Assembly: GCA_002279065.1 (NCBI GenBank)
Contig: NCKB01000005.1
Span: forward strand, 280,727-304,726
DNA length: 24,000 nt
From: Lysobacterales bacterium 15-68-25
GTDB taxonomy: Bacteria > Pseudomonadota > Gammaproteobacteria > Xanthomonadales > Rhodanobacteraceae
Direction: 5' to 3'
The stretch's first letter is position 1. Each line of letters starts with the position of its first letter. The notes beneath the pieces were generated by a model. The model saw nothing but the letters and a program-made list of their open reading frames with translations, searched no databases and was not told the origin of the DNA. Both the position numbers and the translations under genes were made by a program. This document shows positions 3,236 through 14,350 of the stretch, one piece after another.

Positions 3236-5971
3236 ATGGCCGACATCAGCCGCAGCGCCCTCTTCGGCAAGCTCAACAAACTCGCCTACCGGGGCATCGA
3301 GAGCGCCACCGTCTTCTGCAAGCTGCGGGGCAACCCGTACATCGAGCTGGTGCACTGGATCCACCAGATCCTGCAGCTGCAGGATTCGGACCTGCACCAC
3401 ATCGTCAAGCAGTTCAACCTCGATCCGTCCAACCTGGTGCGCGACGTCACCGACGCGCTGGACCGCCTGCCGCGCGGCTCCACCAGCATCTCGGATATCT
3501 CCAGCAACGTGGAAGAGGCGGTCGAACGCGCCTGGGTGTTCGCCACGCTGATGTTCGGCGAGGCGCAGGTGCGTACCGGTTACCTGATCGTCGGCATCCT
3601 GCAGACGCGCAGCCTGCGCAACGTGCTGGTGGGTATCTCCAGGGAGTTCGAGAAGATCAAGCTGGAGACGTTGACCGACCGCTTCGAGGAGGTGGTCGCC
3701 GGTTCGCCGGAGAACAACCAAGCCGCCTCGGACAGCTTCAGGATGGGCGGCGCCGTGCCCGGCGAGGCCAGCGGCGCGATGGGGCCGGCGCAGATGGGCA
3801 AGCAGGAGGCGCTGCGCCAGTTCACCGTCGACCTCACCGAGCAGGCGCGCAGCGGCAAGCTCGATCCCATCGTCGGCCGCGACGACGAGATCCGCCAGGT
3901 GGTCGACATCCTGATGCGGCGCCGGCAGAACAACCCGATCCTGGTCGGCGAGGCCGGCGTGGGCAAGACCGCGGTGGTGGAAGGCTTCGCCCAGCGCATC
4001 GTGCGCGGCGACGTGCCGCCGTCGCTGAAAGAGGTGGAGCTGCGCGTGCTGGACGTGGGCCTGCTGCAGGCCGGCGCCAGCATGAAGGGTGAGTTCGAGC
4101 AGCGCCTGCGCTCGGTGATCGAGGAAGTGCAGGCCAGCCCGAAGCCGATCATCCTGTTCGTCGACGAGACCCACACCCTGGTCGGTGCCGGCGGCGCGGC
4201 CGGCACCGGCGACGCGGCCAACCTGCTCAAGCCGGCGCTGGCGCGCGGTACCCTGCGCACCATCGGCGCCACCACCTTCGCCGAGTACAAGAAGCACATC
4301 GAGAAGGACCCCGCGCTGACCCGCCGCTTCCAGACCGTGCAGGTCGACGAGCCGAGCGAGGAGAAGGGCATCCTGATGATGCGCGGCGTCGCCAGCGTGA
4401 TGGAGAAGCATCACCGCGTGCAGATCCTCGACGAGGCGCTGGAGGCGGCGGTGAAGCTGTCCCACCGCTACATCCCCGCGCGCCAGCTGCCGGACAAGGC
4501 GGTCAGCCTGCTCGACACCGCCTGCGCCCGCGTCGCGGTGAGCCAGCACGCGGTACCGCCGGAAGTGGACGACACCCGCAAGCGCATCGAGGCGCTGGAG
4601 ACCGAGCTGGCGATCATCCATCGCGAGAAGACCGTCGGTGTCGACGTGGCCGAGCGCGAGGCCTCGGTCAACCAGAAGCTGGCCGTCCAGCGCGAACGGC
4701 TGGAGAAGGTTGAGGCCGATTGGGCCGCCGAGAAGGTGCTGGTGGGGCAGATCCTCGCCATCCGCGCCAGGCTGCGCGGCGACAGCGCACCGGTCGAGGG
4801 GACCGGCAGCACGCTGGAAGCTTCCGCCGAAGCCACGGCGCTGGCCGAGGATCCCGCTACCGCCGTCGAGTTCGACGACGTGGCCCGCGCCGCGGCACTG
4901 GAAGAACTGAAGACCCTGCAGGCCCGGCTCGCCGAGCTGCAGGGCGAGAACCCGCTGATCCTGCCGACCGTGGACATGGTCGCCGTCGGTGCGGTGGTCT
5001 CGGACTGGACCGGCATCCCGGTCGGCCGCATGGTCAAGAGCGAACTCGAGACCGTGATGAACCTGGCCGGCCTGATGGGCAAGCGGGTGATCGGCCAGGA
5101 CCACGCGATGGAGATGATCGCCAAGCGCATCCAGACCTCGCGCGCCGGCCTGGACAACCCGAACAAGCCGATCGGCGTGTTCATGCTCGCCGGCACCTCC
5201 GGCGTGGGCAAGACCGAGACCGCGCTGGCACTGGCCGAGGCGCTGTACGGCGGCGAGCAGAACGTCATCACCATCAACATGAGCGAGTTCCAGGAGGCGC
5301 ACACCGTCTCCACACTCAAGGGCGCGCCTCCGGGCTACGTCGGCTACGGCGAGGGCGGCGTGCTGACCGAGGCGGTGCGGCGCAAGCCGTATTCGGTGGT
5401 GCTGCTGGACGAGGTGGAGAAGGCCCATCCGGACGTGCACGAGATCTTCTTCCAGGTGTTCGACAAGGGCGTCATGGAGGACGGCGAAGGCCGTCGCATC
5501 GACTTCAAGAACACCCTGATCCTGCTCACCACCAATGCCGGTACCGACATGATCGCCAGCATGTGCAGCGATCCGGAGCTGATGCCCGACCCGGAGGGCA
5601 TGGCCAAGGCGCTGCGCGATCCGCTGCTGAAGATCTTCCCGCCCGCGCTGCTGGGCCGCCTGGTGACCATCCCGTACTACCCGCTCAGCCCGACCATGCT
5701 CGGCGAGATCGTCAAGCTGCAGCTCAACCGCATCAAGAAGCGCATCGAAGGGCGCTACAGGATCCCGTTCGAGTACGGCGACGACGTGGTCAAGCTGGTG
5801 GTCGAGCGCTGCACCGAGAGCGAATCCGGTGGCCGCATGATCGACGCCATCCTCACCAACTCGATGCTGCCGGACATCAGCCGGGAGTTCCTCAACCGGA
5901 CGATCGAGGGCAAGCCGATCGAGAAGGCGAGTGTCGGCGTGAAGGACGGTGAGTTCAGTTACGCATTTTGA
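3236..5971 (+). CDS. clpV: T6SS AAA+ ATPase ClpV (TssH), 911 aa
   Basis: ClpV-type N-domain: LFGKLNKLAYRGIESATVFCKLRGNPYIELVHW. Two AAA+ modules are present. Walker A1 is GEAGVGKTA with Walker B1 ILFVDETH; Walker A2 is GTSGVGKTE with Walker B2 VVLLDEVEKAH. AAGGA at 3222-3226 lies 9 nt before the ATG. Confidence 0.97.
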   Translation: MADISRSALFGKLNKLAYRGIESATVFCKLRGNPYIELVHWIHQILQLQDSDLHHIVKQFNLDPSNLVRDVTDALDRLPRGSTSISDISSNVEEAVERAWVFATLMFGEAQVRTGYLIVGILQTRSLRNVLVGISREFEKIKLETLTDRFEEVVAGSPENNQAASDSFRMGGAVPGEASGAMGPAQMGKQEALRQFTVDLTEQARSGKLDPIVGRDDEIRQVVDILMRRRQNNPILVGEAGVGKTAVVEGFAQRIVRGDVPPSLKEVELRVLDVGLLQAGASMKGEFEQRLRSVIEEVQASPKPIILFVDETHTLVGAGGAAGTGDAANLLKPALARGTLRTIGATTFAEYKKHIEKDPALTRRFQTVQVDEPSEEKGILMMRGVASVMEKHHRVQILDEALEAAVKLSHRYIPARQLPDKAVSLLDTACARVAVSQHAVPPEVDDTRKRIEALETELAIIHREKTVGVDVAEREASVNQKLAVQRERLEKVEADWAAEKVLVGQILAIRARLRGDSAPVEGTGSTLEASAEATALAEDPATAVEFDDVARAAALEELKTLQARLAELQGENPLILPTVDMVAVGAVVSDWTGIPVGRMVKSELETVMNLAGLMGKRVIGQDHAMEMIAKRIQTSRAGLDNPNKPIGVFMLAGTSGVGKTETALALAEALYGGEQNVITINMSEFQEAHTVSTLKGAPPGYVGYGEGGVLTEAVRRKPYSVVLLDEVEKAHPDVHEIFFQVFDKGVMEDGEGRRIDFKNTLILLTTNAGTDMIASMCSDPELMPDPEGMAKALRDPLLKIFPPALLGRLVTIPYYPLSPTMLGEIVKLQLNRIKKRIEGRYRIPFEYGDDVVKLVVERCTESESGGRMIDAILTNSMLPDISREFLNRTIEGKPIEKASVGVKDGEFSYAF

Positions 5972-6069: not shown

Positions 6070-6663
6070 ATGTTTCAGCGTAGATTCGAGGGGTTCTCTC
6101 AGCAGCAGCAGAGCGTCATTGCGGCCGCGTGCGACGGAATGCAACAGCGTGCGGCCCGTTCGCTTGATCAGGGCGCTCCGATCGCCGCGTGGTTTGGGGC
6201 GGCGGACAGGAATCAGGTGTTTCTCAAGCTGCGCATGATGCAGAACGTGATTCAGGATGGTTCGCGGACCGTCACGTTCGTCAATCGCACCGGCAAGAAG
6301 ATCGGTGTGACGCATACGGACGTCTATACCAAGCATCTCAATCCGGTCGGCCAGGAGACCCCGCTGCAGGGGTCGGGGATCGTCGCCTACGCCTTTCCGG
6401 TCGATCGCCGCTACGGAGATCCCGGGCCGCATTCCACGGTGTCCCATGTCGGGAGCGGGATGCGCATCTACCTGAATGACGTGTTTTTCACGCTCGACCC
6501 GGTGCTTCAGGCGGCGACGATCTATCACGAGATGACGCACAAGGTTCTGGCCACGAACGATCACTGCTACGACCCGGTGGCCTGCCGGATGCTGGCGGCG
6601 AGGAATTCGGCGCAGGCACTCGATAACGCGGACAACTTCGCGCACTACATAGCCAATTGCTGA
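6070..6663 (+). CDS. Aspzincin / M35-like (peptidyl-Lys metalloendopeptidase-like) zinc metallopeptidase, ~197 aa, no signal peptide
   Basis: HEMTH (HExxH) is encoded at 6526-6540. Nine residues later comes ATNDHCYD (6550-6573), which fits the aspzincin third-ligand motif GTxDxxYG. The C-terminal NADNFAHYI resembles the NADsyaxf end of M35-like domains. I prefer ATG 6070 (MFQRRFEGFSQQQQSVIAAACDG...) over the track start at 5968. The latter overlaps the clpV stop and adds an Arg/Gly-rich 34-aa leader. Confidence 0.8.
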   Translation: MFQRRFEGFSQQQQSVIAAACDGMQQRAARSLDQGAPIAAWFGAADRNQVFLKLRMMQNVIQDGSRTVTFVNRTGKKIGVTHTDVYTKHLNPVGQETPLQGSGIVAYAFPVDRRYGDPGPHSTVSHVGSGMRIYLNDVFFTLDPVLQAATIYHEMTHKVLATNDHCYDPVACRMLAARNSAQALDNADNFAHYIANC

Positions 6664-6813: not shown

Positions 6814-7563
6814 GTGTGTCAGTTCGGTACCAATGGGATCATTTCGAATCCAAACGCCCCGCGGCCGACCCAGGCCGCTTCCGGATTCGCGTGCTACGGA
6901 GCCTTGGCGCTCGCCCAGATCGACAGCACGTGCGGCTCGCTGCGAGAGAGGAATCAGCGGTACTACAACATCGGAAAGCCGACCGGAGCGGTGCCTGGCA
7001 TCGCGGTTCCGCTCGCTTGTCATCACGTCATTGGTTGGGACGTCATCTGGGGCTTCTGGAATGCTTTGATCGCCAGCGGCGACTTCAAGAAAGCGCGGGC
7101 TTATCTGGCGATCTGCGGCGTGGCGCAGACCGAGACGGCCAAGCTGGAAAAGCAGGTCAAGAGCAACTCGTTCCAGGCAGGCCCGAACTGGGACGCAAAG
7201 CTCTGCTGGAATCCGATCAATCTCGTTCGGGGGCCTGAAGATCGGTCGGATGATCCCAATGGACTGCCCACGCCTCGCGAGAAGATCGACTTCAAGCTGG
7301 CGCCGTCGGATGTCTACGGCGGTCGCGTGGCCAAACTGGTCGAGACCGGAAACGCGATGTGCGACTACATGGACGCGCCAAGGAACACGGCGAAGGCGGA
7401 AAAGGCGATTCAGTATCTCAGGACCATCCGGGCAGAGCCGATCATGGAATGGGACGAGTCGCTCTGGGTGGTGGACAAGACCCGGCCCGGTTATTCGAGC
7501 ACGGCTGCGCCCGGTGGCGGATTTCTCGTCGTGCGGCCTACCTGGAAGATCGTCAACAGCTGA
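6814..7563 (+). CDS. Hypothetical protein, 249 aa, Trp-rich, no recognisable domain
   Basis: GTG start at 6814 with GGAGA at 6802-6806. The frame shows G/C-preferring third positions but island-type codon usage. No signal peptide or TM segment is visible. The only two His residues are in ...PLACHHVIGWDVIWGFWN.... Confidence 0.7.
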   Translation: MCQFGTNGIISNPNAPRPTQAASGFACYGALALAQIDSTCGSLRERNQRYYNIGKPTGAVPGIAVPLACHHVIGWDVIWGFWNALIASGDFKKARAYLAICGVAQTETAKLEKQVKSNSFQAGPNWDAKLCWNPINLVRGPEDRSDDPNGLPTPREKIDFKLAPSDVYGGRVAKLVETGNAMCDYMDAPRNTAKAEKAIQYLRTIRAEPIMEWDESLWVVDKTRPGYSSTAAPGGGFLVVRPTWKIVNS

Positions 7564-7671: not shown

Positions 7672-7677
7672 AGGAGG
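7672..7677 (+). promoter_or_regulatory. Shine-Dalgarno sequence AGGAGG, 7 nt upstream of ATG 7685
   Basis: The sequence reads cttacAGGAGGacgactgATG. This is the strongest SD match I saw in the window, and it fixes the start of the deaminase-fold gene well inside the 7250..8434 track ORF. Confidence 0.7.
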
Positions 7678-7684
7678 ACGACTG

Positions 7685-8434
7685 ATGGCGAGATGCCCGG
7701 AATGCCGAGAAAACCTGACCATCGACGGGATCGGCCATGCCCGGGGCTGTTCCCGCCGCCGCGGCCGCGCGCGCCTCTCGCCGGCGCAGGCGGAGGAGCA
7801 GCGTGAGGAGCGCAGGTTGCAGGAAATGGCCCAGCGCGAGCGCGAGGCGGAGCGTCGCCGCCAGATCGTCGCAAGCACCAGGGCCGCGCTGCTGGATACA
7901 GCGCCTGTCACGAGTTCGAGCCGCTCCGCTCTGGATGACGTCGCCTACAACATCCACAACGCCTATGACTGGCAGGGTCGCGCGGATCAGTGCGTCACCG
8001 CCGTCGTTCGCAAGAGCAACGGGCGTTACGTGGTGTTTGCCCAGCGGTTCATGACCGTCATGGAGGAGTACGGCAGCCGCCACTATGCCGACCATCAGCT
8101 GTCATTCAAGCCCGGTGGAGGCGCGCATCTGCATGCCGAGATGTACGCAGTGCTGCATTACCTGCAGCGCGGAAAGCATCCTGGCCGGGAAATCGAGCGC
8201 ATCGGGGTGAGCAAGCCGATCTGTCCGTTGTGCCGGGCCGTGCTGATCCATCTCGGTATTCGCTTCACGGAGGGGTGGGTCACAACCGAGCCCAGCACCC
8301 ACTGGAGCGACCCGTGGAGCCTGCTGCCGGCAACGTGCAAGCCGCCGGTCAATCCGTGGCGAAAGGACGCCGATCCCGACGAGGACGCCGGAGGAGATGG
8401 CGGCGGCCTCCACGGCACGTCGATCAGGGTCTGA
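7685..8434 (+). CDS. Nucleic-acid/nucleotide deaminase-fold protein (cytidine-deaminase-like superfamily, OTT_1508-like signature), 249 aa; candidate T6SS toxin
   Basis: HAE is encoded at 8132-8140 (aa 150-152). SKPICPLC at 8210-8233 places the first Cys 28 residues after the Glu. This is the H[AC]E...(P)CxxC zinc-binding signature of the deaminase fold. The IGVSKxxCxxC form is what I remember for the OTT_1508-like clade. The N-terminus has C4-x2-C7...H18-x3-C22, a possible zinc knuckle. It is followed by an Arg/Glu-rich predicted helix (RRRGRARLSPAQAEEQREERRLQEMAQREREAERRRQ). Confidence 0.75.
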   Translation: MARCPECRENLTIDGIGHARGCSRRRGRARLSPAQAEEQREERRLQEMAQREREAERRRQIVASTRAALLDTAPVTSSSRSALDDVAYNIHNAYDWQGRADQCVTAVVRKSNGRYVVFAQRFMTVMEEYGSRHYADHQLSFKPGGGAHLHAEMYAVLHYLQRGKHPGREIERIGVSKPICPLCRAVLIHLGIRFTEGWVTTEPSTHWSDPWSLLPATCKPPVNPWRKDADPDEDAGGDGGGLHGTSIRV

Positions 8435-8650
8435 GGCGCGCTCGCATCGGTCGGGTCGGCCGACAGGAGCGGCGCCCTGACGGCTGACAGGAATTCCCCT
8501 CCGTTCACGCACTACCGATTGACAGGACTGCATCGCTCTCCCCTTCAGAGGGCGTTCGCCGGGATGGCATCAGCGGGTTGGATGTCCGGGCCAGGCCCCG
8601 GACGCTTGGTGCGATATGGCGTCGTCGACGCCTGGACTGGCGGGGGAACC

Positions 8651-8959
8651 ATGAACAGCGAACACGCACGTGCAGGCGGCTCGTTGCCATCGGGGCGGCG
8701 GCAGCCGAGGCGCGGTCGTGTCCGCGCCTTGGCGGTGGCGAACGTGCTCGCGGCCGACATCGACATGCCCGGCCGGATGGGGCGGGTCGAGGCGATGAAG
8801 CAGCAGCGGATGGAGCCGCTGGGCAAGATCGCGACCAGGAGCCTCGCCCCCTCGTGCCTGCAACTGGAGGGTCTGCCCTCGGACGATGGCCCGCACGTGG
8901 AGAAAGGCTTCGTCGCCGGCGTCAGGAGCAAGGCGCACAGGCAGTTGCATCTTTCCTGA
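8651..8959 (+). CDS. Candidate small ORF (~102 aa), unannotated; possible immunity gene; strand and start uncertain
   Basis: By hand count, 89 of 102 codons end in G or C in this frame, which is a strong coding-type signal for this genome. GGGGGA precedes ATG 8651. The track ORF 8519..8959 starts at a TTG, and GC3 is weaker before 8651. One caveat is that the antisense ORF 8545..8991 shares the same third positions, so the signal does not settle the strand. The plus-strand peptide looks more protein-like, but no motif is recognised. Confidence 0.3.
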   Translation: MNSEHARAGGSLPSGRRQPRRGRVRALAVANVLAADIDMPGRMGRVEAMKQQRMEPLGKIATRSLAPSCLQLEGLPSDDGPHVEKGFVAGVRSKAHRQLHLS

Positions 8960-9054
8960 CGGGCACGGCAGTCCGCATCTGCGGGCGGCACCCACGTCGA
9001 ATCACTTTGCGGGGAATGTCCGGCGCGGCGCCGGCTTTCCCGGGGAACATTTCC

Positions 9055-9558
9055 ATGAGAGTCAAGCTTGTCAGCCCGTCGGCCGATCTGTCGCTACCCG
9101 AATACTGCGTGGGTCAGGCATCCAGGACATGCGTCTATCCGGGCATCGCGCAGTGCTTCGCGATCGCCGGCTGGACCAAGGGCGGGATGCTCTGCACCCA
9201 CGTCAGCCCCGGTGCGACCAGCGAAGAGATGGCTGCCACCTTCGAGCACCTGCGGAACCTGGGCGGCGACCAGGCGCAGCGCTGGTACGTGGTGGGTCCA
9301 TTCACGGAACACTTCGCCGTGACCAAGGCGCAATGGCGCTCGGTCGAGGCGATCAAGAAGACCTTCAAGCAGTTGAAGAACAAGAATGCCGAGCGCTGGA
9401 TCCTCGACGTCACCGCCGAACGCCAGGCCTTCAGCTGGGGCATCGACATCCAGTCCACGCCTTGCGACTGGGCGCCGGTGATCTATTTCGACTACAGGAA
9501 GTGGGGCTCGAAGGGCGGCTGGACCGACCTGAAAGTCCACAAGTTCGTCCGCTTCTGA
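9055..9558 (+). CDS. Hypothetical protein, 167 aa, with a CheD-like Cys...His arrangement (possible deamidase/cysteine hydrolase fold)
   Basis: Real gene by GC3 and length. Start ATG 9055 is preferred, with GGGGA about 8 nt upstream; the upstream part of track ORF 8578..9558 is Arg-rich junk. The peptide GIAQCFAIAGWTKGGMLCTHVSPG has Cys34 (9154-9156) and His49 (9199-9201). It resembles the CheD consensus lGSCvavxlxDxxxxigGmaHxmLP as I remember it. The size (~160 aa) and a later segment (VEAIKKTFKQL...ILDVTAERQAFSWGIDIQS) also parallel CheD family layout. Confidence 0.7.
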   Translation: MRVKLVSPSADLSLPEYCVGQASRTCVYPGIAQCFAIAGWTKGGMLCTHVSPGATSEEMAATFEHLRNLGGDQAQRWYVVGPFTEHFAVTKAQWRSVEAIKKTFKQLKNKNAERWILDVTAERQAFSWGIDIQSTPCDWAPVIYFDYRKWGSKGGWTDLKVHKFVRF

Positions 9559-9773: not shown

Positions 9774-10211
9774 ATGAAACGACTGGCCAAGGCAACCGGA
9801 GCCGGACTTCGGCACTTCTTCGGGGCGCGCGAGAGCATCAGCCAGCAGAAGAACCTGGCGCGACAGTTCAAGGCCGCCGATACGCGGGTCAGCAAGACGA
9901 AGATTCTCGCCGTCATGGGCATGTATGCCGTGTACAAGGGGTCGCCGATCGGACTGGGCAAGAACATCGCCGACAGCATCAAGGTCGGGCGATGGAAGCA
10001 CAGCGACCTGAAACGCCAGCAGGAAGAGGTGGATGCCTTGCTTGCCGGCACCGGGATGTCGCCGCAGGGCATCGCCGCCGTGTCGCGACTGGTTCGCCAG
10101 GGCGCCTCGGGCGATGAGGTCTACGCCAACCTGTCTCCGAACGACGCGCAGATACTCGCGGGCATCGAGAACGATCTGCATGTCCAGGCAGGTCACTGCG
10201 TGAACTTCTGA
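9774..10211 (+). CDS. Hypothetical protein, 145 aa, no recognisable domain
   Basis: ATG 9774 is preceded by GAGG at 9761-9764; the track start at 9684 adds an Arg/Ser-rich leader. The peptide is MKRLAKATGAGLRHFFGARESISQQKNL...; it is mostly helical and charged, with no signal peptide. Confidence 0.6.
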   Translation: MKRLAKATGAGLRHFFGARESISQQKNLARQFKAADTRVSKTKILAVMGMYAVYKGSPIGLGKNIADSIKVGRWKHSDLKRQQEEVDALLAGTGMSPQGIAAVSRLVRQGASGDEVYANLSPNDAQILAGIENDLHVQAGHCVNF

Positions 10212-10579: not shown

Positions 10580-10870
10580 ATGCCGCAGCCGGCCGCGCGC
10601 CTGACCGACATGCACGTCTGCCCGATGGTGACGGGGGTGGTGCCCCACGTAGGCGGTCCGATCACCGCCCCCGGCAAGCCGAACGTGCTGATCGGTGGGC
10701 TGCCTGCTGCCCGCCTGGGCGATATGGCGACGTGCGTCGGGCCGCCGGACTCCATCGTGATGGGGGCGCCCACGGTGCTGATCGGTGGGCAGCCGGCGGC
10801 GCGGCTGGGGGACAGCTGCGCCCACGGCGGCACGATCGTGCTGGGCTGCTTCACCGTGCTGATCGGTTGA
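10580..10870 (+). CDS. PAAR-domain spike-tip protein, 96 aa, no extension domain
   Basis: Three PAAR-type repeats are present: QPAARLTDMHVCP, GLPAARLGDMATC and GQPAARLGDSCAHGG. The length is typical of a stand-alone PAAR. GGAG at 10567-10570 lies 9 nt before the ATG. Confidence 0.95.
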   Translation: MPQPAARLTDMHVCPMVTGVVPHVGGPITAPGKPNVLIGGLPAARLGDMATCVGPPDSIVMGAPTVLIGGQPAARLGDSCAHGGTIVLGCFTVLIG

Positions 10871-10880
10871 GGAGGATTCG

Positions 10881-12269
10881 ATGCGATCCGCGACCCGGGC
10901 CATGCCATCACGCCGCAAGCGGCGGCCGCCGCAGCCGTCCGATCCCGCCTTTGCCGGTCTGCTGCAGGAGGCCATGCGCGCCCATCAGTCCGGTGACCTG
11001 GATACGGCAGAGCGCCTGTACGGCGAGGTGCTGGCGCTGCATGCCGCCCAACCGGACGCGCTGCATTTCCTCGGCGTGCTGGCCCACCAGCGCGGCCGCA
11101 GCGACGAGGCGGTGCTGCTGATCAGTTCGGCGCTGAAGATCGTTCCCAGGCATCCGGACGCGCACAACAACCTGGGCAACGTGCACAAGGAATGCGGACG
11201 GCTGGCCGACGCCGAGCGCTGCTACCGCAAGGCGCTGGCCTGTGGACCGGAGCATTACCAGGCGCAGAGCAACCTGGCCGTGGTGCTGGAGGCGCAGGAG
11301 CGCCTGGACGACGCCTTCGAGGCGTATTCGAAGCTGATCGCGCAGGCGCCCACCTACGCGCACGGCTACTACCGGCTCGGCCTGTTCCTGCGCAACTACG
11401 CCCAGAGCGAGGAGCACCTGGAGCAGTCGGCGGAATGCTTCCGCGAATCCTTTCGCCACGATCCGGCCAACGTGCGCGCACTGGAGGGCGTGGGCGTGGC
11501 GCTGTACATGCTCCATCGCCACGACGAGGCTGCGGAGGTCTACCGCCAGTGGCTGGAGCGCGAGCCGGACAACCCGGTGCCGCGTCACATGCTGGCGTCC
11601 TGCGGCGCCGCCGAGGCACCGCCGCGTGCCGCCGACGACTATGTGCGCGACGTCTTCGACGGCTTCGCCGAGAGCTTCGACGAGCAGCTGATCCAGAACC
11701 TCGGCTATCGCGCGCCTGAGGTGCTGGTCGGCATGCTGGACGAGGTGACGCCGATTGCCGGCGCGACGCTCGACGTGCTCGACGCCGGATGCGGTACCGG
11801 CCTGTGCGCACCGCTGCTGCGCGCGCGGGCGCGCCGCCTGGTGGGCGTGGACCTGTCCGGCGGCATGGTCGACAAGGCGCGGCTGCGCGGTGGCTACGAC
11901 ACGCTGGAGGTGGCCGAGCTCACCGCCTGGCTCGAGGCCCATCCGCGCTCCTTCGACCTGGTCGTCTCGGCCGACACGCTGGTCTATTTCGGCCAGCTCG
12001 GCCCGGTACTCGCCGCCGCGTCTGGCGCGCTGCGCGCGGGCGGCTGGGTGGGCTTCACCCTGGAAGCCACGGAGGGCGAGGCCGAGGTGGCCGAGCTCAC
12101 CTCCAGCGGCCGCTACCGGCATTCGCGCCCCTACGTCGAGCGCGTGCTCGCGGACAGCGGCTTCGAAGCTGTCACCGTGCGCGGCGACACGCTGCGGCGC
12201 GAGGCCGGCAAACCCGTACACGGCTGGGTGGTCCGCGCCCGCCGGTGCGTTCCCCAAGACGGCGCCTGA
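10881..12269 (+). CDS. TPR-repeat protein fused to a class I SAM-dependent methyltransferase, 462 aa
   Basis: The N-terminal half has several 34-aa TPR-like units (AERLYGEVLALHAAQPDALHFLGVLAHQRG, AHNNLGNVHKECGRLADAERCYRKALACGP, and others). The C-terminal half has SAM motif I LDVLDAGCGTGL (from 11769), post-I VGVDLS, and FDLVVSADTLVYF. It starts 10 nt after the PAAR stop and ends 23 nt before vgrG. Confidence 0.9.
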   Translation: MRSATRAMPSRRKRRPPQPSDPAFAGLLQEAMRAHQSGDLDTAERLYGEVLALHAAQPDALHFLGVLAHQRGRSDEAVLLISSALKIVPRHPDAHNNLGNVHKECGRLADAERCYRKALACGPEHYQAQSNLAVVLEAQERLDDAFEAYSKLIAQAPTYAHGYYRLGLFLRNYAQSEEHLEQSAECFRESFRHDPANVRALEGVGVALYMLHRHDEAAEVYRQWLEREPDNPVPRHMLASCGAAEAPPRAADDYVRDVFDGFAESFDEQLIQNLGYRAPEVLVGMLDEVTPIAGATLDVLDAGCGTGLCAPLLRARARRLVGVDLSGGMVDKARLRGGYDTLEVAELTAWLEAHPRSFDLVVSADTLVYFGQLGPVLAAASGALRAGGWVGFTLEATEGEAEVAELTSSGRYRHSRPYVERVLADSGFEAVTVRGDTLRREAGKPVHGWVVRARRCVPQDGA

Positions 12270-12292
12270 GCGCACCACGACGGACCCCGCCC

Positions 12293-14350
12293 ATGGCCCA
12301 CGCGATCACCGTTACCTGCGATGTCGAGAGCACCCTGCTGTTCGTGCGCATGCGTGCCACCGAGGGGCTCGGCCAGCTGTTCTCGTACGAACTGCAACTG
12401 CTCAGCGAAAACGCCGAAGTCGACCTGCTCAAGCTGCTCGGCAAGCCGATGGCGGTGAAGCTGGTCGACGAGGACGGCACCACCCGCTACTTCCACGGCA
12501 TCGTCGCGGAGGCCGAGCAGACCGGCTTCGAGACGATCTCCAAGGTGCGCTATGCCGCCTACCAATTGCAGCTGGTGCCAAAGCCCTGGCTGCTGTCGCA
12601 GAAGGTCGATTGCCGCATCTACACCGAGATGGATGTGCCGTCGATCGTCAAGGCGGTGCTCGGCGACATCGGCTATGCCGACGTCAAGCTGAGCCTCACC
12701 GGCAACTATCCGCAGCGCGACTACTGCGTGCAGTACCGCGAGAGCGGCCTGAACTTCATCAGCCGGCTGATGGAGCAGGAGGGCATCTACTACTTCTTCA
12801 CCCATGCGGCCAACGCGCACACCCTGGTGCTGGCCGACGCGCTGGGCGCGCACGCGGCGACCAGTGGCTTCGAGCACGTGCCGTACTGCCCGCCGACCCA
12901 GCGCGGCGGACGCCAGGCCGGCTCGATGTCGCAGTGGCGCAGCGCCGGGCAGGTGCATTCGCTCAAGGTGCAGCTCACCGACTACAACCCGCTCACGCCC
13001 AAGGCCTCGCTGCTCGGCACCGCGACCCTGAGCGGCTCGGAGTACCACGGTGTCGGCGGGCTGGACGTGTTCGACTACCCCGGGCCGCACGACAACGCGT
13101 CGGACGGCAAGCGGTATGCGCAGGTGCAGGTCGAGGCCCGGAACGCATTGCACAAGGCATTCCACGGGCAGACCGACGCCTTCGGGATCGCCTGCGGCGC
13201 GCTGTTCACCCTGCAGGACTTTCCGTTGCAGGCGCTCAACCGGGAATACCTGATCACCCGGACCATCATCGAGCTGGCCGATCCCGGCTACTACGGCGGC
13301 GCGGACGCGGGCCAGGAGCCGTTCCGCTGCGAACTGCAGGCGATCCCCAGCAGCCAGCCGTTCCGCAGCCTGGCCACGGCGGCCAAGCCGCGCATCGCCG
13401 GCCTGCAGACGGCGGTGGTCTGCGGCAGCGACACCGACGAGGACATCGCGGTGGACAAGTACGGCCGCGTGCAGGTGACCTTCCCCTGGAACAAGCCGGA
13501 CAAGCCCGAGGCCAAGAGTTCCTGCCCGGTGCGGGTGGCCTCGCCCTGGGCCGGCAAGAACTGGGGCGCGGTGAGCATTCCGCGCGTCGGGCAGGAAGTG
13601 GTGGTGAGCTTCCTCGAGGGCGATCCCGACCGGCCGCTGATCATCGGCAGCGTCTACAACGCCGACAACATGCCGCCGTACTCGCTGCCGGACAACAAGA
13701 CCCAGTCCGGCGTGAAGACGCGCAGCCTGCTCGGCGGCACCGACGACGCCAACGAGCTGCGTTTCGAGGACAAGAAGGGTTCCGAGCAGTTCTTCATCCA
13801 CGCGCAGAAGGACATGCTCGAGGAAGTCGAGAACGACCACACCGTCACCATCGACCACGACGAGACGGTGACGGTGAAGAACGACCAGAAGCTCACCGTC
13901 AACCACGATCAGACCATGGAGGTCGGCAACGACCAGACCGAGACGGTCAAGCACGATCGCAAGATCACCGTGCAGAACGACGACACCCTCGACGTCACCG
14001 CCAACGGCACCACCAGCATCGGGCAGAAGTTCAAGCTCAGCGCGGGCACCGAGATCGAGCTGGTCACCGGCGCGTCCAGCATCACCATGAAGAGCGACGG
14101 CACGATCGAGATCAAGGGCGTCAACATCAAGATCACCGGCGACGTCGGCGTGAAGATCGAGGGTCAGGTGGAAGTCGGCATCAAGGCCGGCGCCACCATG
14201 GATCTGGGCGCCGGCGCGAGCCTTAAGGCGCACTCGGACGCCATGCTGGAAGTGGCCGGCAGCGCGATGACCACGGTCAAGGGCGCGATGACCACCATCA
14301 AGGGCGACGCGATGACCCAGGTCTCCGGCTCAATCATCATGATCGGCTGA
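12293..14350 (+). CDS. vgrG: T6SS spike protein VgrG, 685 aa, no C-terminal effector domain
   Basis: From ATG 12293 the peptide reads MAHAITVTCDVESTLLFVRMRATEGLGQLFSYELQLLSEN.... The gp27/gp5 modules follow (RVASPWAGKNWGAVSIPRVGQEVVVSFLEGDPDRPLIIGSVYN). A C-terminal beta-helix repeat then runs to the stop (HTVTIDHDETVTVKNDQKLTVNHDQTMEVGNDQTETVKHDRKITVQNDD...). The upstream part of track ORFs 11755/11789 is out-of-frame methyltransferase sequence. Confidence 0.95.
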   Translation: MAHAITVTCDVESTLLFVRMRATEGLGQLFSYELQLLSENAEVDLLKLLGKPMAVKLVDEDGTTRYFHGIVAEAEQTGFETISKVRYAAYQLQLVPKPWLLSQKVDCRIYTEMDVPSIVKAVLGDIGYADVKLSLTGNYPQRDYCVQYRESGLNFISRLMEQEGIYYFFTHAANAHTLVLADALGAHAATSGFEHVPYCPPTQRGGRQAGSMSQWRSAGQVHSLKVQLTDYNPLTPKASLLGTATLSGSEYHGVGGLDVFDYPGPHDNASDGKRYAQVQVEARNALHKAFHGQTDAFGIACGALFTLQDFPLQALNREYLITRTIIELADPGYYGGADAGQEPFRCELQAIPSSQPFRSLATAAKPRIAGLQTAVVCGSDTDEDIAVDKYGRVQVTFPWNKPDKPEAKSSCPVRVASPWAGKNWGAVSIPRVGQEVVVSFLEGDPDRPLIIGSVYNADNMPPYSLPDNKTQSGVKTRSLLGGTDDANELRFEDKKGSEQFFIHAQKDMLEEVENDHTVTIDHDETVTVKNDQKLTVNHDQTMEVGNDQTETVKHDRKITVQNDDTLDVTANGTTSIGQKFKLSAGTEIELVTGASSITMKSDGTIEIKGVNIKITGDVGVKIEGQVEVGIKAGATMDLGAGASLKAHSDAMLEVAGSAMTTVKGAMTTIKGDAMTQVSGSIIMIG

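What the first reader, a model, noticed from the sequence alone, without database searches (positions are those of the whole stretch)
7685..8434. Stand-alone deaminase-fold protein with N-terminal CCHC knuckle inside a T6SS cluster: candidate new deaminase effector
The sequence shows HAE (8132-8140) and SKPICPLC (8210-8233) 28 residues apart, which is the zinc-binding signature of the cytidine-deaminase-like fold.

The IGVSKxxCxxC variant is the form I associate with the OTT_1508-like clade. Iyer, Zhang, Aravind and colleagues predicted that clade to be toxins, but as far as I know it has not been characterised as a T6SS effector. The characterised T6SS deaminases DddA and SsdA belong to other clades.

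The architecture is also odd. There is no PAAR, Rhs, VgrG, MIX or other known loading domain. Instead there is a C-x2-C...H-x3-C knuckle and a roughly 40-residue Arg/Glu-rich helix. The gene has the best Shine-Dalgarno in the window and lies in the lower-GC island between clpV and PAAR.

If it is a DNA or RNA deaminase toxin, it could be mutagenic to target cells and of interest as a base-editing scaffold.
Basis: partly seen in the sequence, partly recalled or inferred. Interest (0 to 1): 0.85.

Follow-up and report, generated by a model that had tools for sequence, protein, structure and literature searches.

The report
Stand-alone toxin-type deaminase in T6SS cluster
A real 249-residue gene inside a type VI secretion cluster encodes a zinc deaminase of the OTT_1508 toxin family; that family was predicted in 2011 to include secreted toxins, but the bacterial members, this one included, are still untested.

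Summary
Window 7685-8434 (+) is an intact 249-aa gene under purifying selection, and every motif sits at the stated coordinates.

Pfam places it in OTT_1508_deam above the curated cut-off (34.4 bits against 27). All three clade signatures from Iyer et al. 2011 are present. A confident AlphaFold model finds almost only cytidine and blasticidin-S deaminases in the PDB, though weakly.

The gene lies between clpV and PAAR of a complete T6SS cluster of Dyella/Xanthomonas type. It is the only gene shared by the otherwise different clpV-PAAR islands of the six island types compared.

Residues 23-244 match the whole cleaved C-terminal cargo of Rhs/TcC-type giant toxins. Relatives of the core domain also occur in eCIS-core proteins. 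It is therefore a toxin module.

No neighbouring gene is conserved. The gene that follows it in other Dyella is deleted here, so no adjacent immunity gene is visible.

My best reading is an immunity-less T6SS cargo deaminase, probably aimed at eukaryotic predators or hosts. The substrate is unresolved. The only characterised clade members, the fungal OLD proteins, edit RNA adenosines.

This is a new member of a known kind, of moderate interest.

The parts
7672..7677 (+). Shine-Dalgarno AGGAGG, 7 nt upstream of the ATG
   Evidence: sequence read
7685..8434 (+). Deaminase gene, 249 codons plus stop
   Evidence: Pfam PF14441 E = 2.2e-8. 22 homologue clusters. dN/dS 0.05-0.18.
7694..7750 (+). N-terminal CCHC zinc knuckle (C4, C7, H18, C22)
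   Evidence: An automatic pattern scan finds it in P0001-P0003, P0005, P0008-P0011 and P0022. P0004 has Tyr in place of the His. P0006 and P0007 are start-truncated annotations whose loci encode it. P0027 also has it. It is absent from the Rhs/TcC cargo versions. dN/dS is 0.05-0.07. pLDDT is only about 60.
7751..7897 (+). Basic stretch (SRRRGRAR) and long Arg/Glu-rich helix, residues 23-71
   Evidence: AF2 helix 33-71, pLDDT 87-95. Aligns with the start of the toxin cargo of P0028 and P0033, just after the Rhs cleavage motif.
7922..8329 (+). Deaminase core, residues 80-215: helix 82-91, strands 105-110 and 115-119, insert helix 124-133, HAE helix 151-161, strand 170-175, CxxC helix 181-190, then the H206/W207-x-x-P210 loop
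8132..8140 (+). H150-A-E152: zinc ligand and catalytic glutamate
8204..8233 (+). G174-V-S-K177-P-I-C180-P-L-C183: clade-specific GxxK followed by the CxxC zinc ligands
8300..8314 (+). H206-W207-S-D-P210: clade-specific polar residue plus aromatic-x-x-P loop
8366..8431 (+). Disordered Asp-rich, then Gly-rich tail ending in I-R-V
   Evidence: pLDDT < 50. The same compositional pattern occurs in distant stand-alone relatives and at the C-terminus of P0028 and P0033.
8727..8959 (+). 3' remnant of the gene that follows the deaminase in other Dyella (337 aa in L005). About 270 codons are deleted here.
3236..5971 (+). clpV (tssH), upstream border of the variable island
10580..10870 (+). PAAR protein, downstream border of the island
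12290..14350 (+). VgrG spike

Best explanation
[quoted passage not shown] It is probably fired by the surrounding T6SS as a separate (cargo) effector.

Shown.
- H150, C180 and C183 form the usual zinc site, and E152 is the proton shuttle.
- Residues 23-244 (basic stretch, Arg/Glu helix, deaminase core, acidic/Gly tail) form one evolutionary module. This module is also the autoproteolytically released C-terminal cargo of Rhs/TcC-type toxins.
- Relatives of the core domain are also carried by eCIS-core proteins.
- The gene is the only constant member of the clpV-PAAR effector island in a Dyella/Xanthomonas T6SS lineage.
- It has no conserved neighbouring gene.

Inferred.
- It is secreted by this T6SS.
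- The strongly conserved CCHC knuckle is specific to the close stand-alone family. It serves either to load the protein on the spike or tube, or to bind nucleic acid.
- There is no adjacent immunity gene. Its relatives ride in Tc and eCIS machines, which in my own knowledge typically act on eukaryotic cells. The related X. citri T6SS protects against amoebae and not against bacteria. The likeliest target is therefore a eukaryotic cell (a predator or host), where the enzyme deaminates RNA or DNA.
- The base is not resolved. It could be adenine in RNA, as in the fungal OLD proteins of the same clade, or cytosine, as Iyer et al. proposed from the APOBEC-like loop.
For: - Family and fold. Pfam OTT_1508_deam scores 34.4 bits against a cut-off of 27. 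The clade signatures GxxK and H/WxxP match Iyer's Table 1 and are invariant across 41 relatives.
- Structure. The AF2 model has pLDDT 83 and pTM 0.71, with the strand-strand-helix-strand-helix core. Nearly all of the top ~45 PDB Foldseek hits are cytidine or blasticidin-S deaminases, with TM 0.40-0.50 on the target.
- Selection. dN/dS is 0.06 in the core and 0.05 in the knuckle.
- Toxin module. P0028 (TcdB_midC + RHS) and P0033 (SpvB + TcdB_midN/C + RHS) carry the module right after the Rhs 'DPxG..DGLNLY' motif. They are 30% identical to the window protein, P0028 over residues 23-244 and P0033 over 26-212. P0046 and P0049 are eCIS_core proteins carrying related core domains.
- Context. The order clpV, island, PAAR, TPR-methyltransferase is seen in the window, in Dyella (L004, L005), in Xanthomonas (L001, L002, L006, L007) and in a soil metagenome (L008). 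VgrG follows wherever the sequence held reaches that far. The deaminase is the only island gene shared.
- No immunity candidate. The downstream genes are unrelated: a remnant, then 337, 252, 195 and 398 aa in different loci. L010 has a convergent aldehyde dehydrogenase gene instead.
- Biology of the T6SS group. The X. citri T6SS gives resistance to Dictyostelium, gives no advantage against other Gram-negative bacteria, and its effectors are unknown. The review places Dyella clusters in a branch of group 3, the group that also holds the X. citri system (PMC6653060).
- Substrate precedent. The fungal OLD proteins are A-to-I RNA editors (PMC12754623).
Against: - Secretion and enzymatic activity were not tested.
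- No known loading domain or adaptor (PAAR, DUF4123, DUF1795, DUF2169) was found.
- The same islands carry typical antibacterial-looking cargo: Endonuclea_NS_2 in L005, and Lipase_3 and a weak Tsi1 hit in L008. This T6SS branch may therefore also kill bacteria.
- An immunity gene could lie elsewhere in the genome.
- Two relatives (L003, L010) are not in T6SS clusters.
- The assignment of this cluster to the X. citri-like group rests on gene order and on the nearest genomes, not on a phylogeny.
Confidence: 0.6

Rival explanations
1. It is an antibacterial T6SS toxin of the DddA/SsdA type. It would be a DNA cytosine deaminase that kills or mutagenises rival bacteria, with the producer protected by an immunity protein encoded elsewhere or by one of the unrecognised island genes.
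For: - All characterised T6SS deaminase toxins are antibacterial DNA cytosine deaminases (PMC7901873).
- Iyer et al. suggested cytosine for this clade from the APOBEC-like loop, and noted that a few of the T6SS-delivered deaminase toxins of the OTT_1508 and XOO_2897 clades have immunity genes.
- Related islands hold nuclease, lipase and Tsi1-like genes.
Against: - No neighbouring gene is conserved across six island types, although the toxin is 50-84% identical.
- The directly downstream gene is deleted in this window, while the deaminase stays intact and under purifying selection.
- No Pfam match to SCP1.201, DYW or the other deaminase toxin families.
- The related X. citri T6SS gives no advantage against other Gram-negative bacteria.
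Confidence: 0.25
2. It is not secreted. It would be a cell-intrinsic RNA (or DNA) editor that acts on the producer's own transcripts, for example to regulate the T6SS. This would be analogous to the fungal OLD proteins that edit the mRNA of a neighbouring gene.
For: - It is the one constant gene of an otherwise variable island.
- It has no loading domain and no immunity gene.
- The fungal clade members are regulatory editors of neighbouring genes.
Against: - The same module is the released cargo of Rhs/TcC toxins, and related core domains sit in eCIS proteins. That fits a toxin, not a housekeeping enzyme.
- The family is rare and patchy: 94 hits in 1.8 billion representatives.
- GC3 is lower than in the core genes.
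- No neighbouring target gene is conserved.
Confidence: 0.08
3. It is a catalytically dead or purely structural protein that only keeps the deaminase scaffold. It could be a spike decoration or a decoy.
For: - The C-terminal half of the fold is degenerate: no clear strands 4-5 or helix 4 appear in the model.
- Matches to solved deaminases are weak.
Against: - All four catalytic or zinc residues and the substrate-loop residues are invariant over deep divergence.
- Core dN/dS is 0.06.
- C-terminal degeneration is a described property of this clade, and the clade includes the fungal OLD proteins, which are active RNA editors.
Confidence: 0.04

Closest known systems
OTT_1508-like deaminase clade (Pfam PF14441; Iyer, Zhang, Rogozin and Aravind 2011, PMC3239186), including the Xanthomonas member XCV4233 named there
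   Same: - HAE...CxxC zinc site.
- GxxK before CxxC.
- Polar residue plus aromatic-x-x-P loop.
- Degenerate C-terminal elements.
- Predicted toxin role with T6SS, PVC (eCIS) and other delivery routes.
- Versions without an adjacent immunity gene.
   Different: This subfamily is a short stand-alone protein with an N-terminal CCHC knuckle. I did not find the knuckle described in the main text of that paper. Whether XCV4233 is the orthologue, and where it lies in its genome, could not be checked with the tools.
Fungal OLD-1/OLD-2 (OTT_1508-like deaminases) of Neurospora crassa, as reviewed in PMC12754623
   Same: - Same named deaminase domain and the same HxE...CxxC centre.
- A helix between strand 2 and the HAE helix. 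Iyer et al. list this insert for the fungal members, and the model here has one at residues 124-133.
   Different: The OLD proteins are intracellular, virus-induced A-to-I editors of the mRNA of an adjacent zinc-finger transcription factor gene. Here the gene sits in a secretion cluster, its relatives are toxin cargo, and no partner gene is conserved. No direct sequence comparison was made.
DddA (SCP1.201-like, BaDTF1) and SsdA (DYW-like, BaDTF2), the characterised T6SS deaminase toxins (PMC7901873)
   Same: - Same deaminase superfamily.
- Linked to a T6SS.
- Toxin logic.
   Different: - They belong to different clades of the superfamily. Iyer et al. place SCP1.201 and DYW in the C-terminal-hairpin division and OTT_1508 in the helix-4 division.
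- No Pfam cross-hit.
- SsdA was crystallised in complex with its cognate immunity protein SsdAI. That both toxins are C-terminal domains of larger polymorphic toxins, and that DddA has the immunity protein DddI, is my own knowledge. The window protein is stand-alone with no visible immunity gene.
- Its substrate is unknown.
C-terminal hypervariable cargo of TcB-TcC / Rhs toxins, and eCIS (PVC) cargo proteins
   Same: Residues 23-244 align at 30% identity with the whole region that follows the Rhs cleavage motif in P0028, tail included, and residues 26-212 align with the same region of P0033. P0046 and P0049 carry related core domains behind an eCIS_core domain.
   Different: In the window the module is a free protein with an extra zinc knuckle. 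It is encoded in a T6SS cluster rather than fused to a shell or to the eCIS_core domain.

Membership tests
OTT_1508-like deaminase clade (PF14441) | Match to the family profile above the curated gathering score | tested here: met
   34.4 bits against a cut-off of 27, E = 2.2e-8, residues 149-211 on profile positions 1-60 of 64. 21 of the 22 homologue clusters carry precomputed PF14441; the truncated P0022 does not.
OTT_1508-like deaminase clade (PF14441) | HxE ... CxxC zinc-binding and catalytic motif | tested here: met
   H150-A-E152 and C180-P-L-C183 are invariant in A1 (23 sequences) and A2 (41 sequences).
OTT_1508-like deaminase clade (PF14441) | GxxK motif just before CxxC (Iyer 2011, Table 1) | tested here: met
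   G174-V-S-K177. G174 and K177 are at least 90% conserved in A1. The definition is quoted.
OTT_1508-like deaminase clade (PF14441) | Extended loop after strand 4 with a conserved polar residue (usually His) and an aromatic-x-x-P motif | tested here: met
   H206 and W207-S-D-P210. W207 and P210 are invariant in 41 sequences.
OTT_1508-like deaminase clade (PF14441) | Deaminase fold core with degraded elements after strand 3 | tested here: inconclusive
OTT_1508-like deaminase clade (PF14441) | Deaminase activity on a nucleic-acid or nucleotide substrate | not testable with these tools
   This needs biochemistry.
T6SS cargo effector | Encoded within or next to a T6SS cluster, near vgrG or PAAR | tested here: met
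   It lies between clpV (3236-5971) and PAAR (10580-10870), with vgrG at 12290-14350. It holds the same clpV-to-PAAR position in the seven related loci L001, L002 and L004-L008.
T6SS cargo effector | Known loading determinant (PAAR, VgrG or Rhs fusion, MIX, or an adjacent DUF4123, DUF1795 or DUF2169 adaptor) | tested here: not met
   Pfam finds only the deaminase domain in the protein, and none of these adaptor families in the neighbouring genes that were scanned. By eye there is no MIX-like motif.
T6SS cargo effector | T6SS-dependent secretion | not testable with these tools
   This needs a secretome comparison of wild type against a tssM or clpV mutant.
Antibacterial effector-immunity pair | A conserved cognate immunity gene adjacent to the toxin gene | tested here: not met
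   Upstream and downstream genes share no similarity between lineages (BLASTP and tblastn). The downstream gene is deleted in the window. In L010 the next gene is convergent.
DddA / BaDTF1 (SCP1.201-like) and SsdA / BaDTF2 (DYW-like) | Profile match to those deaminase families | tested here: not met
   At E <= 1 only OTT_1508_deam, dCMP_cyt_deam_1 (below its cut-off) and a spurious RING hit are reported.
Polymorphic-toxin C-terminal cargo (Rhs / TcC) | Homology to the region that follows the Rhs core autocleavage motif of a large toxin | tested here: met
   P0028 residues 1269-1510 and P0033 residues 2149-2341 align at 30% identity with window residues 23-244 and 26-212 respectively. Both lie downstream of the motif ...YYGARYY.P.LG.W...DP.G..DGLNLY....
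Fungal OLD-ZAO RNA-editing module | Deaminase gene paired with an adjacent zinc-finger transcription factor gene carrying an editable premature UAG | tested here: not met
   Pfam reports no zinc-finger transcription factor domain in the flanking genes of the window, or in those of the related loci that were scanned or carry precomputed Pfam calls. An editable premature UAG was not looked for.

The most novel reading that the evidence does not exclude
The protein is a T6SS-injected RNA-editing toxin. In this reading it would be a bacterial relative of the fungal OLD A-to-I editors that deaminates adenosines (or cytidines) in RNA of amoebae or other eukaryotic targets. It would need no immunity gene because its substrate or a cofactor exists only in the target. 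It would also be one of the long-sought effectors of the anti-amoeba T6SS lineage of Xanthomonadales. The CCHC knuckle would then be a new loading tag or RNA-binding tag for cargo of this T6SS.
Probability: 0.2. Interest if true: 0.8.

Novelty: new member of a known kind. Interest (0 to 1): 0.5.

Why it matters
- The bacterial OTT_1508-like deaminases were predicted to be toxins in 2011. In the literature I could search, none has a known substrate, target organism or delivery signal.
- This subfamily is a compact, stand-alone protein of 249 aa. It sits at a fixed place in a T6SS cluster whose closest studied relative (X. citri) defends against amoebae with unknown effectors. That makes it a tractable entry point for two questions: what these toxins deaminate, and what that T6SS lineage injects.
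- A new substrate or sequence preference could be of use as an editing enzyme. That remains speculative until activity is shown.

Tried and rejected
- **PDB by sequence.** A profile search of PDB sequences found no relative.
- **Profile comparisons.** hhalign of the family against TadA, the DddA toxin domain and APOBEC3A was uninformative. TadA aligned in register over HAE...PCxxC at E = 0.11, and the others did not align.
- **Second homologue search.** A search with a deeper alignment did not reach named relatives. I could therefore not establish whether XCV4233 is the orthologue or lies in a T6SS cluster.
- **Other libraries.**
  - PADLOC and PHROGs gave no hits for the deaminase or its neighbours, so I dropped an anti-phage or phage origin.
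  - NCBIfam gave no hit.
  - Rfam found nothing in the window, including the long non-coding stretch 8435-9075.
- **Small downstream ORF.** A tblastx search for a small conserved ORF just downstream gave only the noise typical of high-GC DNA.
- **The 8578-9558 ORF as one gene.** I considered and rejected this. Mismatch phase against L005 shows coding constraint only from about 9060 onwards.
- **The 337-aa Dyella gene or the 252-aa Xanthomonas gene as immunity genes.** Rejected. They are unrelated to each other, and the first is deleted in the window.
Full report
**1. The observation**

Window 7685-8434 (+) is an open reading frame of 249 codons. An AGGAGG lies at 7672-7677, 7 nt before the ATG.

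- HAE is residues 150-152 (bases 8132-8140).
- SKPICPLC is residues 176-183 (bases 8210-8233).
- E152 and C180 are 28 residues apart.
- The N-terminus reads C4-x2-C7 ... H18-x3-C22.
- Residues 23-75 hold 14 Arg and 8 Glu.

Homologues start at the same MARCPEC, which fixes the start codon.

Two details need softening.
- An equally good AGGAGG precedes the TPR-methyltransferase gene at 10881, so this is not uniquely the best ribosome-binding site.
- The gene's overall GC (0.665) is barely below the window mean (0.686). Its GC3 is 0.81, and the other island genes have 0.77-0.88. That is clearly lower than PAAR and clpV at 0.91-0.94.

**2. It is a real, constrained gene of the OTT_1508 deaminase family**

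Pfam matches OTT_1508_deam at E = 2.2e-8 and 34.4 bits, above the curated cut-off of 27. The only other deaminase hit is dCMP_cyt_deam_1, which falls below its threshold. NCBIfam, PADLOC and PHROGs report nothing.

A search of 5.8 billion proteins found only 22 clusters. Nearly all carry PF14441, and most come from metagenomes. A full HMM scan of 1.84 billion representatives found 94 relatives, of which only 10 score below 1e-30. The family is rare.

In an alignment of 41 relatives reaching down to 20-30% identity, H150, E152, C180, C183, L187, W207 and P210 are invariant.

Table 1 of Iyer et al. 2011 defines the clade by three features:
- a GxxK motif before CxxC;
- an extended loop with a polar residue (usually His) and an aromatic-x-x-P motif;
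- degraded elements after strand 3.

The protein has G174-V-S-K177, H206 and W207-x-x-P210.

dN/dS against orthologues is 0.05-0.18 overall. By region it is 0.06 in the core, 0.05-0.07 in the knuckle, 0.13-0.31 in the helix and 0.35-0.49 in the tail.

**3. Structure**

AlphaFold2 with the 23-sequence alignment gave pLDDT 83.3 and pTM 0.71. The model contains:
- a single long helix at 33-71;
- helix 82-91;
- strands 105-110 and 115-119;
- an insert helix at 124-133;
- the HAE helix at 151-161;
- strand 170-175;
- the CxxC helix at 181-190;
- then a loop region with no clear strands 4-5.

The knuckle is modelled at pLDDT of about 60. The last 21 residues fall below 50.

**4. Genomic setting**

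The window encodes tssF, tssG, clpV, a 4.6-kb island, PAAR, a TPR-methyltransferase, vgrG, DUF6931, fha, tssK, tssL and tssM.

The nearest genomes are Dyella ginsengisoli (84% protein identity), a Dyella MAG (82%), Xanthomonas bonasiae (69%) and Xanthomonas sp. AmX2 (67%). In all of them, and in a forest-soil metagenome contig (L008), the deaminase lies between clpV and PAAR.

The rest of each island differs.

| Locus | Other island genes |
|---|---|
| Window | an Aspzincin_M35-like gene, an unknown 249-aa gene, then two Dyella-specific genes |
| L004 / L005 | an Endonuclea_NS_2 nuclease and several unknowns |
| Xanthomonas (L001, L002, L006) | an EEP phosphatase/nuclease, a 252-aa unknown and a Ser/Thr kinase with TPR repeats |
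| L007 (Xanthomonas sp. AmX2) | the deaminase directly after clpV, then the kinase |
| L008 | five unknowns before PAAR (one with a weak Tsi1 hit), and a DUF6795 gene and a Lipase_3 gene after it |

The deaminase is the only gene common to all of these islands. Two more distant, knuckle-less relatives (L003, L010) are not in T6SS clusters.

**5. No immunity candidate**

The genes directly downstream are unrelated to one another by BLASTP and tblastn:
- 337 aa in Dyella;
- 252 aa in Xanthomonas;
- 195 aa in L008;
- 398 aa in L009;
- a convergent aldehyde dehydrogenase gene in L010.

In the window itself, the 337-aa gene has lost about 270 codons. Only its last ~67 codons survive (8756-8959). 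Substitutions against L005 in that stretch show no codon-phase bias, whereas the true genes at ~9060-9558 and ~9774-10211 do show it. The upstream genes are equally unconserved.

An adjacent cognate immunity gene is the usual mark of an antibacterial effector. That feature was tested here and not met.

**6. It is a toxin module**

Two giant proteins among the relatives end in the same module:
- P0028 has TcdB_midC and RHS repeats.
- P0033 has SpvB, TcdB_midN/C and RHS, which is the architecture of a fused TcB-TcC toxin shell.

The module begins a few dozen residues after the Rhs core motif '...YYGARYY.P.LG.W...DP.G..DGLNLY...'. P0028 aligns at 30% identity with window residues 23-244. That span includes the basic stretch, the Arg/Glu helix, the core and the Asp/Gly-rich tail. 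P0033 aligns at 30% identity over residues 26-212 and ends in a similar Asp/Gly-rich tail.

P0082 carries a related core domain after a PT-HINT domain. P0046 and P0049 carry one behind an eCIS_core domain.

The 'odd' helix and tail are therefore parts of a known kind of polymorphic-toxin cargo. Only the CCHC knuckle is an addition specific to the close stand-alone family. The knuckle is present in all eight T6SS-cluster copies examined, absent from L003 and L010, and present in P0027, whose context is unclear.

**7. What is already known**

Iyer et al. 2011 defined this clade and listed T7SS, PVC and T6SS as its secretion routes. They named a Xanthomonas member (XCV4233). They stated that deaminase toxins of this clade in Xanthomonas and Burkholderia are T6SS-delivered. 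They also noted versions lacking immunity genes that may act on eukaryotic hosts. The T6SS link as a prediction is therefore not new.

De Moraes et al. 2021 showed that DddA (SCP1.201-like), SsdA (DYW-like) and a Pput_2613-like toxin are DNA cytosine deaminases. They left the other toxin clades untested.

The only functional data on OTT_1508-like proteins that I found concern the fungal OLD-1 and OLD-2. These are A-to-I editors of hairpin loops in mRNA. Full-text searches for OTT_1508 and PF14441 turned up no experimental work on a bacterial member.

**8. Most likely mechanism**

Shown:
- a constrained OTT_1508-type zinc deaminase;
- homology to released toxin cargo;
- a fixed position in a T6SS effector island;
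- no conserved partner gene.

Inferred: it is a T6SS cargo effector, and the knuckle is either its loading handle or a nucleic-acid clamp.

The absence of an immunity gene, the Tc and eCIS relatives, and the biology of the related system together point to a eukaryotic target. Tc and eCIS machines, in my own knowledge, mostly act on eukaryotic cells. The X. citri T6SS confers resistance to Dictyostelium, gives no advantage against bacteria, and has unknown effectors. The review places Dyella clusters in a branch of group 3, the group that also holds the X. citri system (PMC6653060).

The substrate base and nucleic acid are open. I put 0.6 on the overall reading, and less (about 0.4) on the eukaryotic-target part.

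The main rival (0.25) is a DddA-like antibacterial DNA deaminase with an unlinked immunity gene. It is favoured by precedent and by the nuclease, lipase and Tsi1-like genes in related islands. Minor rivals are a non-secreted self-editor (0.08) and an inactive scaffold (0.04).

**9. Verdict**

The claims of novelty and of a DNA-mutator role are overstated.

This is a new, architecturally distinct member of a toxin family predicted fifteen years ago and still uncharacterised in bacteria. Interest is moderate. It would rise sharply if the protein proved to be an injected RNA editor, or the missing effector of the anti-amoeba T6SS lineage.

Noticed in passing
window 8727-8959 (+): This is the 3' remnant (last ~67 codons, 66% identical) of a 337-aa Gly/Ala-rich gene that is intact just downstream of the deaminase in the Dyella loci L005 (11099-12112) and L004. 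Substitutions show no codon-phase bias, so it is a decaying pseudogene. Together with 8435-8726 it makes an unusually long (~640 nt) non-coding gap.
   Followed up: yes
window ~6070-6663 (+): An ORF matches Aspzincin_M35 (lysine-specific metallo-endopeptidase) at E = 2.9e-12. It has no counterpart in any related T6SS locus. It may be a strain-specific protease effector.
   Followed up: partly
window 6814-7563 (+): A 249-aa ORF lies directly upstream of the deaminase. It has no hit in Pfam, NCBIfam, PADLOC or PHROGs and no counterpart in related loci.
   Followed up: partly
window ~9076-9558 and 9774-10211 (+): Third-codon-position substitution bias against L005 identifies two small genes here. 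One is shared with L005 only, the other with both L004 and L005. They are absent from the Xanthomonas loci and have no family hits. The mechanical ORF 8578-9558 is mostly non-coding at its 5' end.
   Followed up: partly
L005 7770-8423 and 9385-9855 (Dyella ginsengisoli), same in L004: Two further island ORFs carry deaminase-like motifs. One has an N-terminal four-Cys ribbon plus HCAE...PCLLCC. The other has ACAE...PCENC. Neither matches any Pfam family or PDB sequence. Next to them lies an Endonuclea_NS_2 nuclease (8480-9181). The island may hold several nucleic-acid toxins, two of them with N-terminal zinc ribbons.
   Followed up: partly
window 10881-12269 (+) and the same position in L001, L002, L004-L008: A TPR-repeat plus SAM-methyltransferase protein is encoded immediately after PAAR or, in L008, two genes further on (64-79% identical across loci). 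Its role in this T6SS lineage is unknown. It could be a chaperone or a modifier of cargo.
   Followed up: no
window 8366-8431; C-termini of P0023, P0034, P0028, P0033: An Asp/Glu-rich, then Gly-rich tail ending in a short hydrophobic motif (IRV, ITV, IAV, VAVA) persists from the window protein to distant relatives and to the Rhs/TcC cargo versions. It persists despite being disordered and fast-evolving. Its function is unknown.
   Followed up: partly
L007 10001-11023 (Xanthomonas sp. AmX2): The deaminase ORF is 340 aa here. The tail is replaced by unrelated sequence, probably through a frameshift. The gene directly follows clpV.
   Followed up: no
L012 8001-8738: A distant relative (P0034, 245 aa, with the acidic/Gly tail) lies between an ORF of more than 3457 aa and phage-like genes (AAA_24, Phage_Tail_Tip). 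This suggests yet another delivery context.
   Followed up: no
L003 743-1282: A 179-aa gene lies 27 nt upstream of the knuckle-less, non-T6SS relative P0016. It has weak RNase_T / Rv2179c-like exonuclease similarity (E = 0.02-0.05). It could be a partner or protector in that lineage.
   Followed up: no
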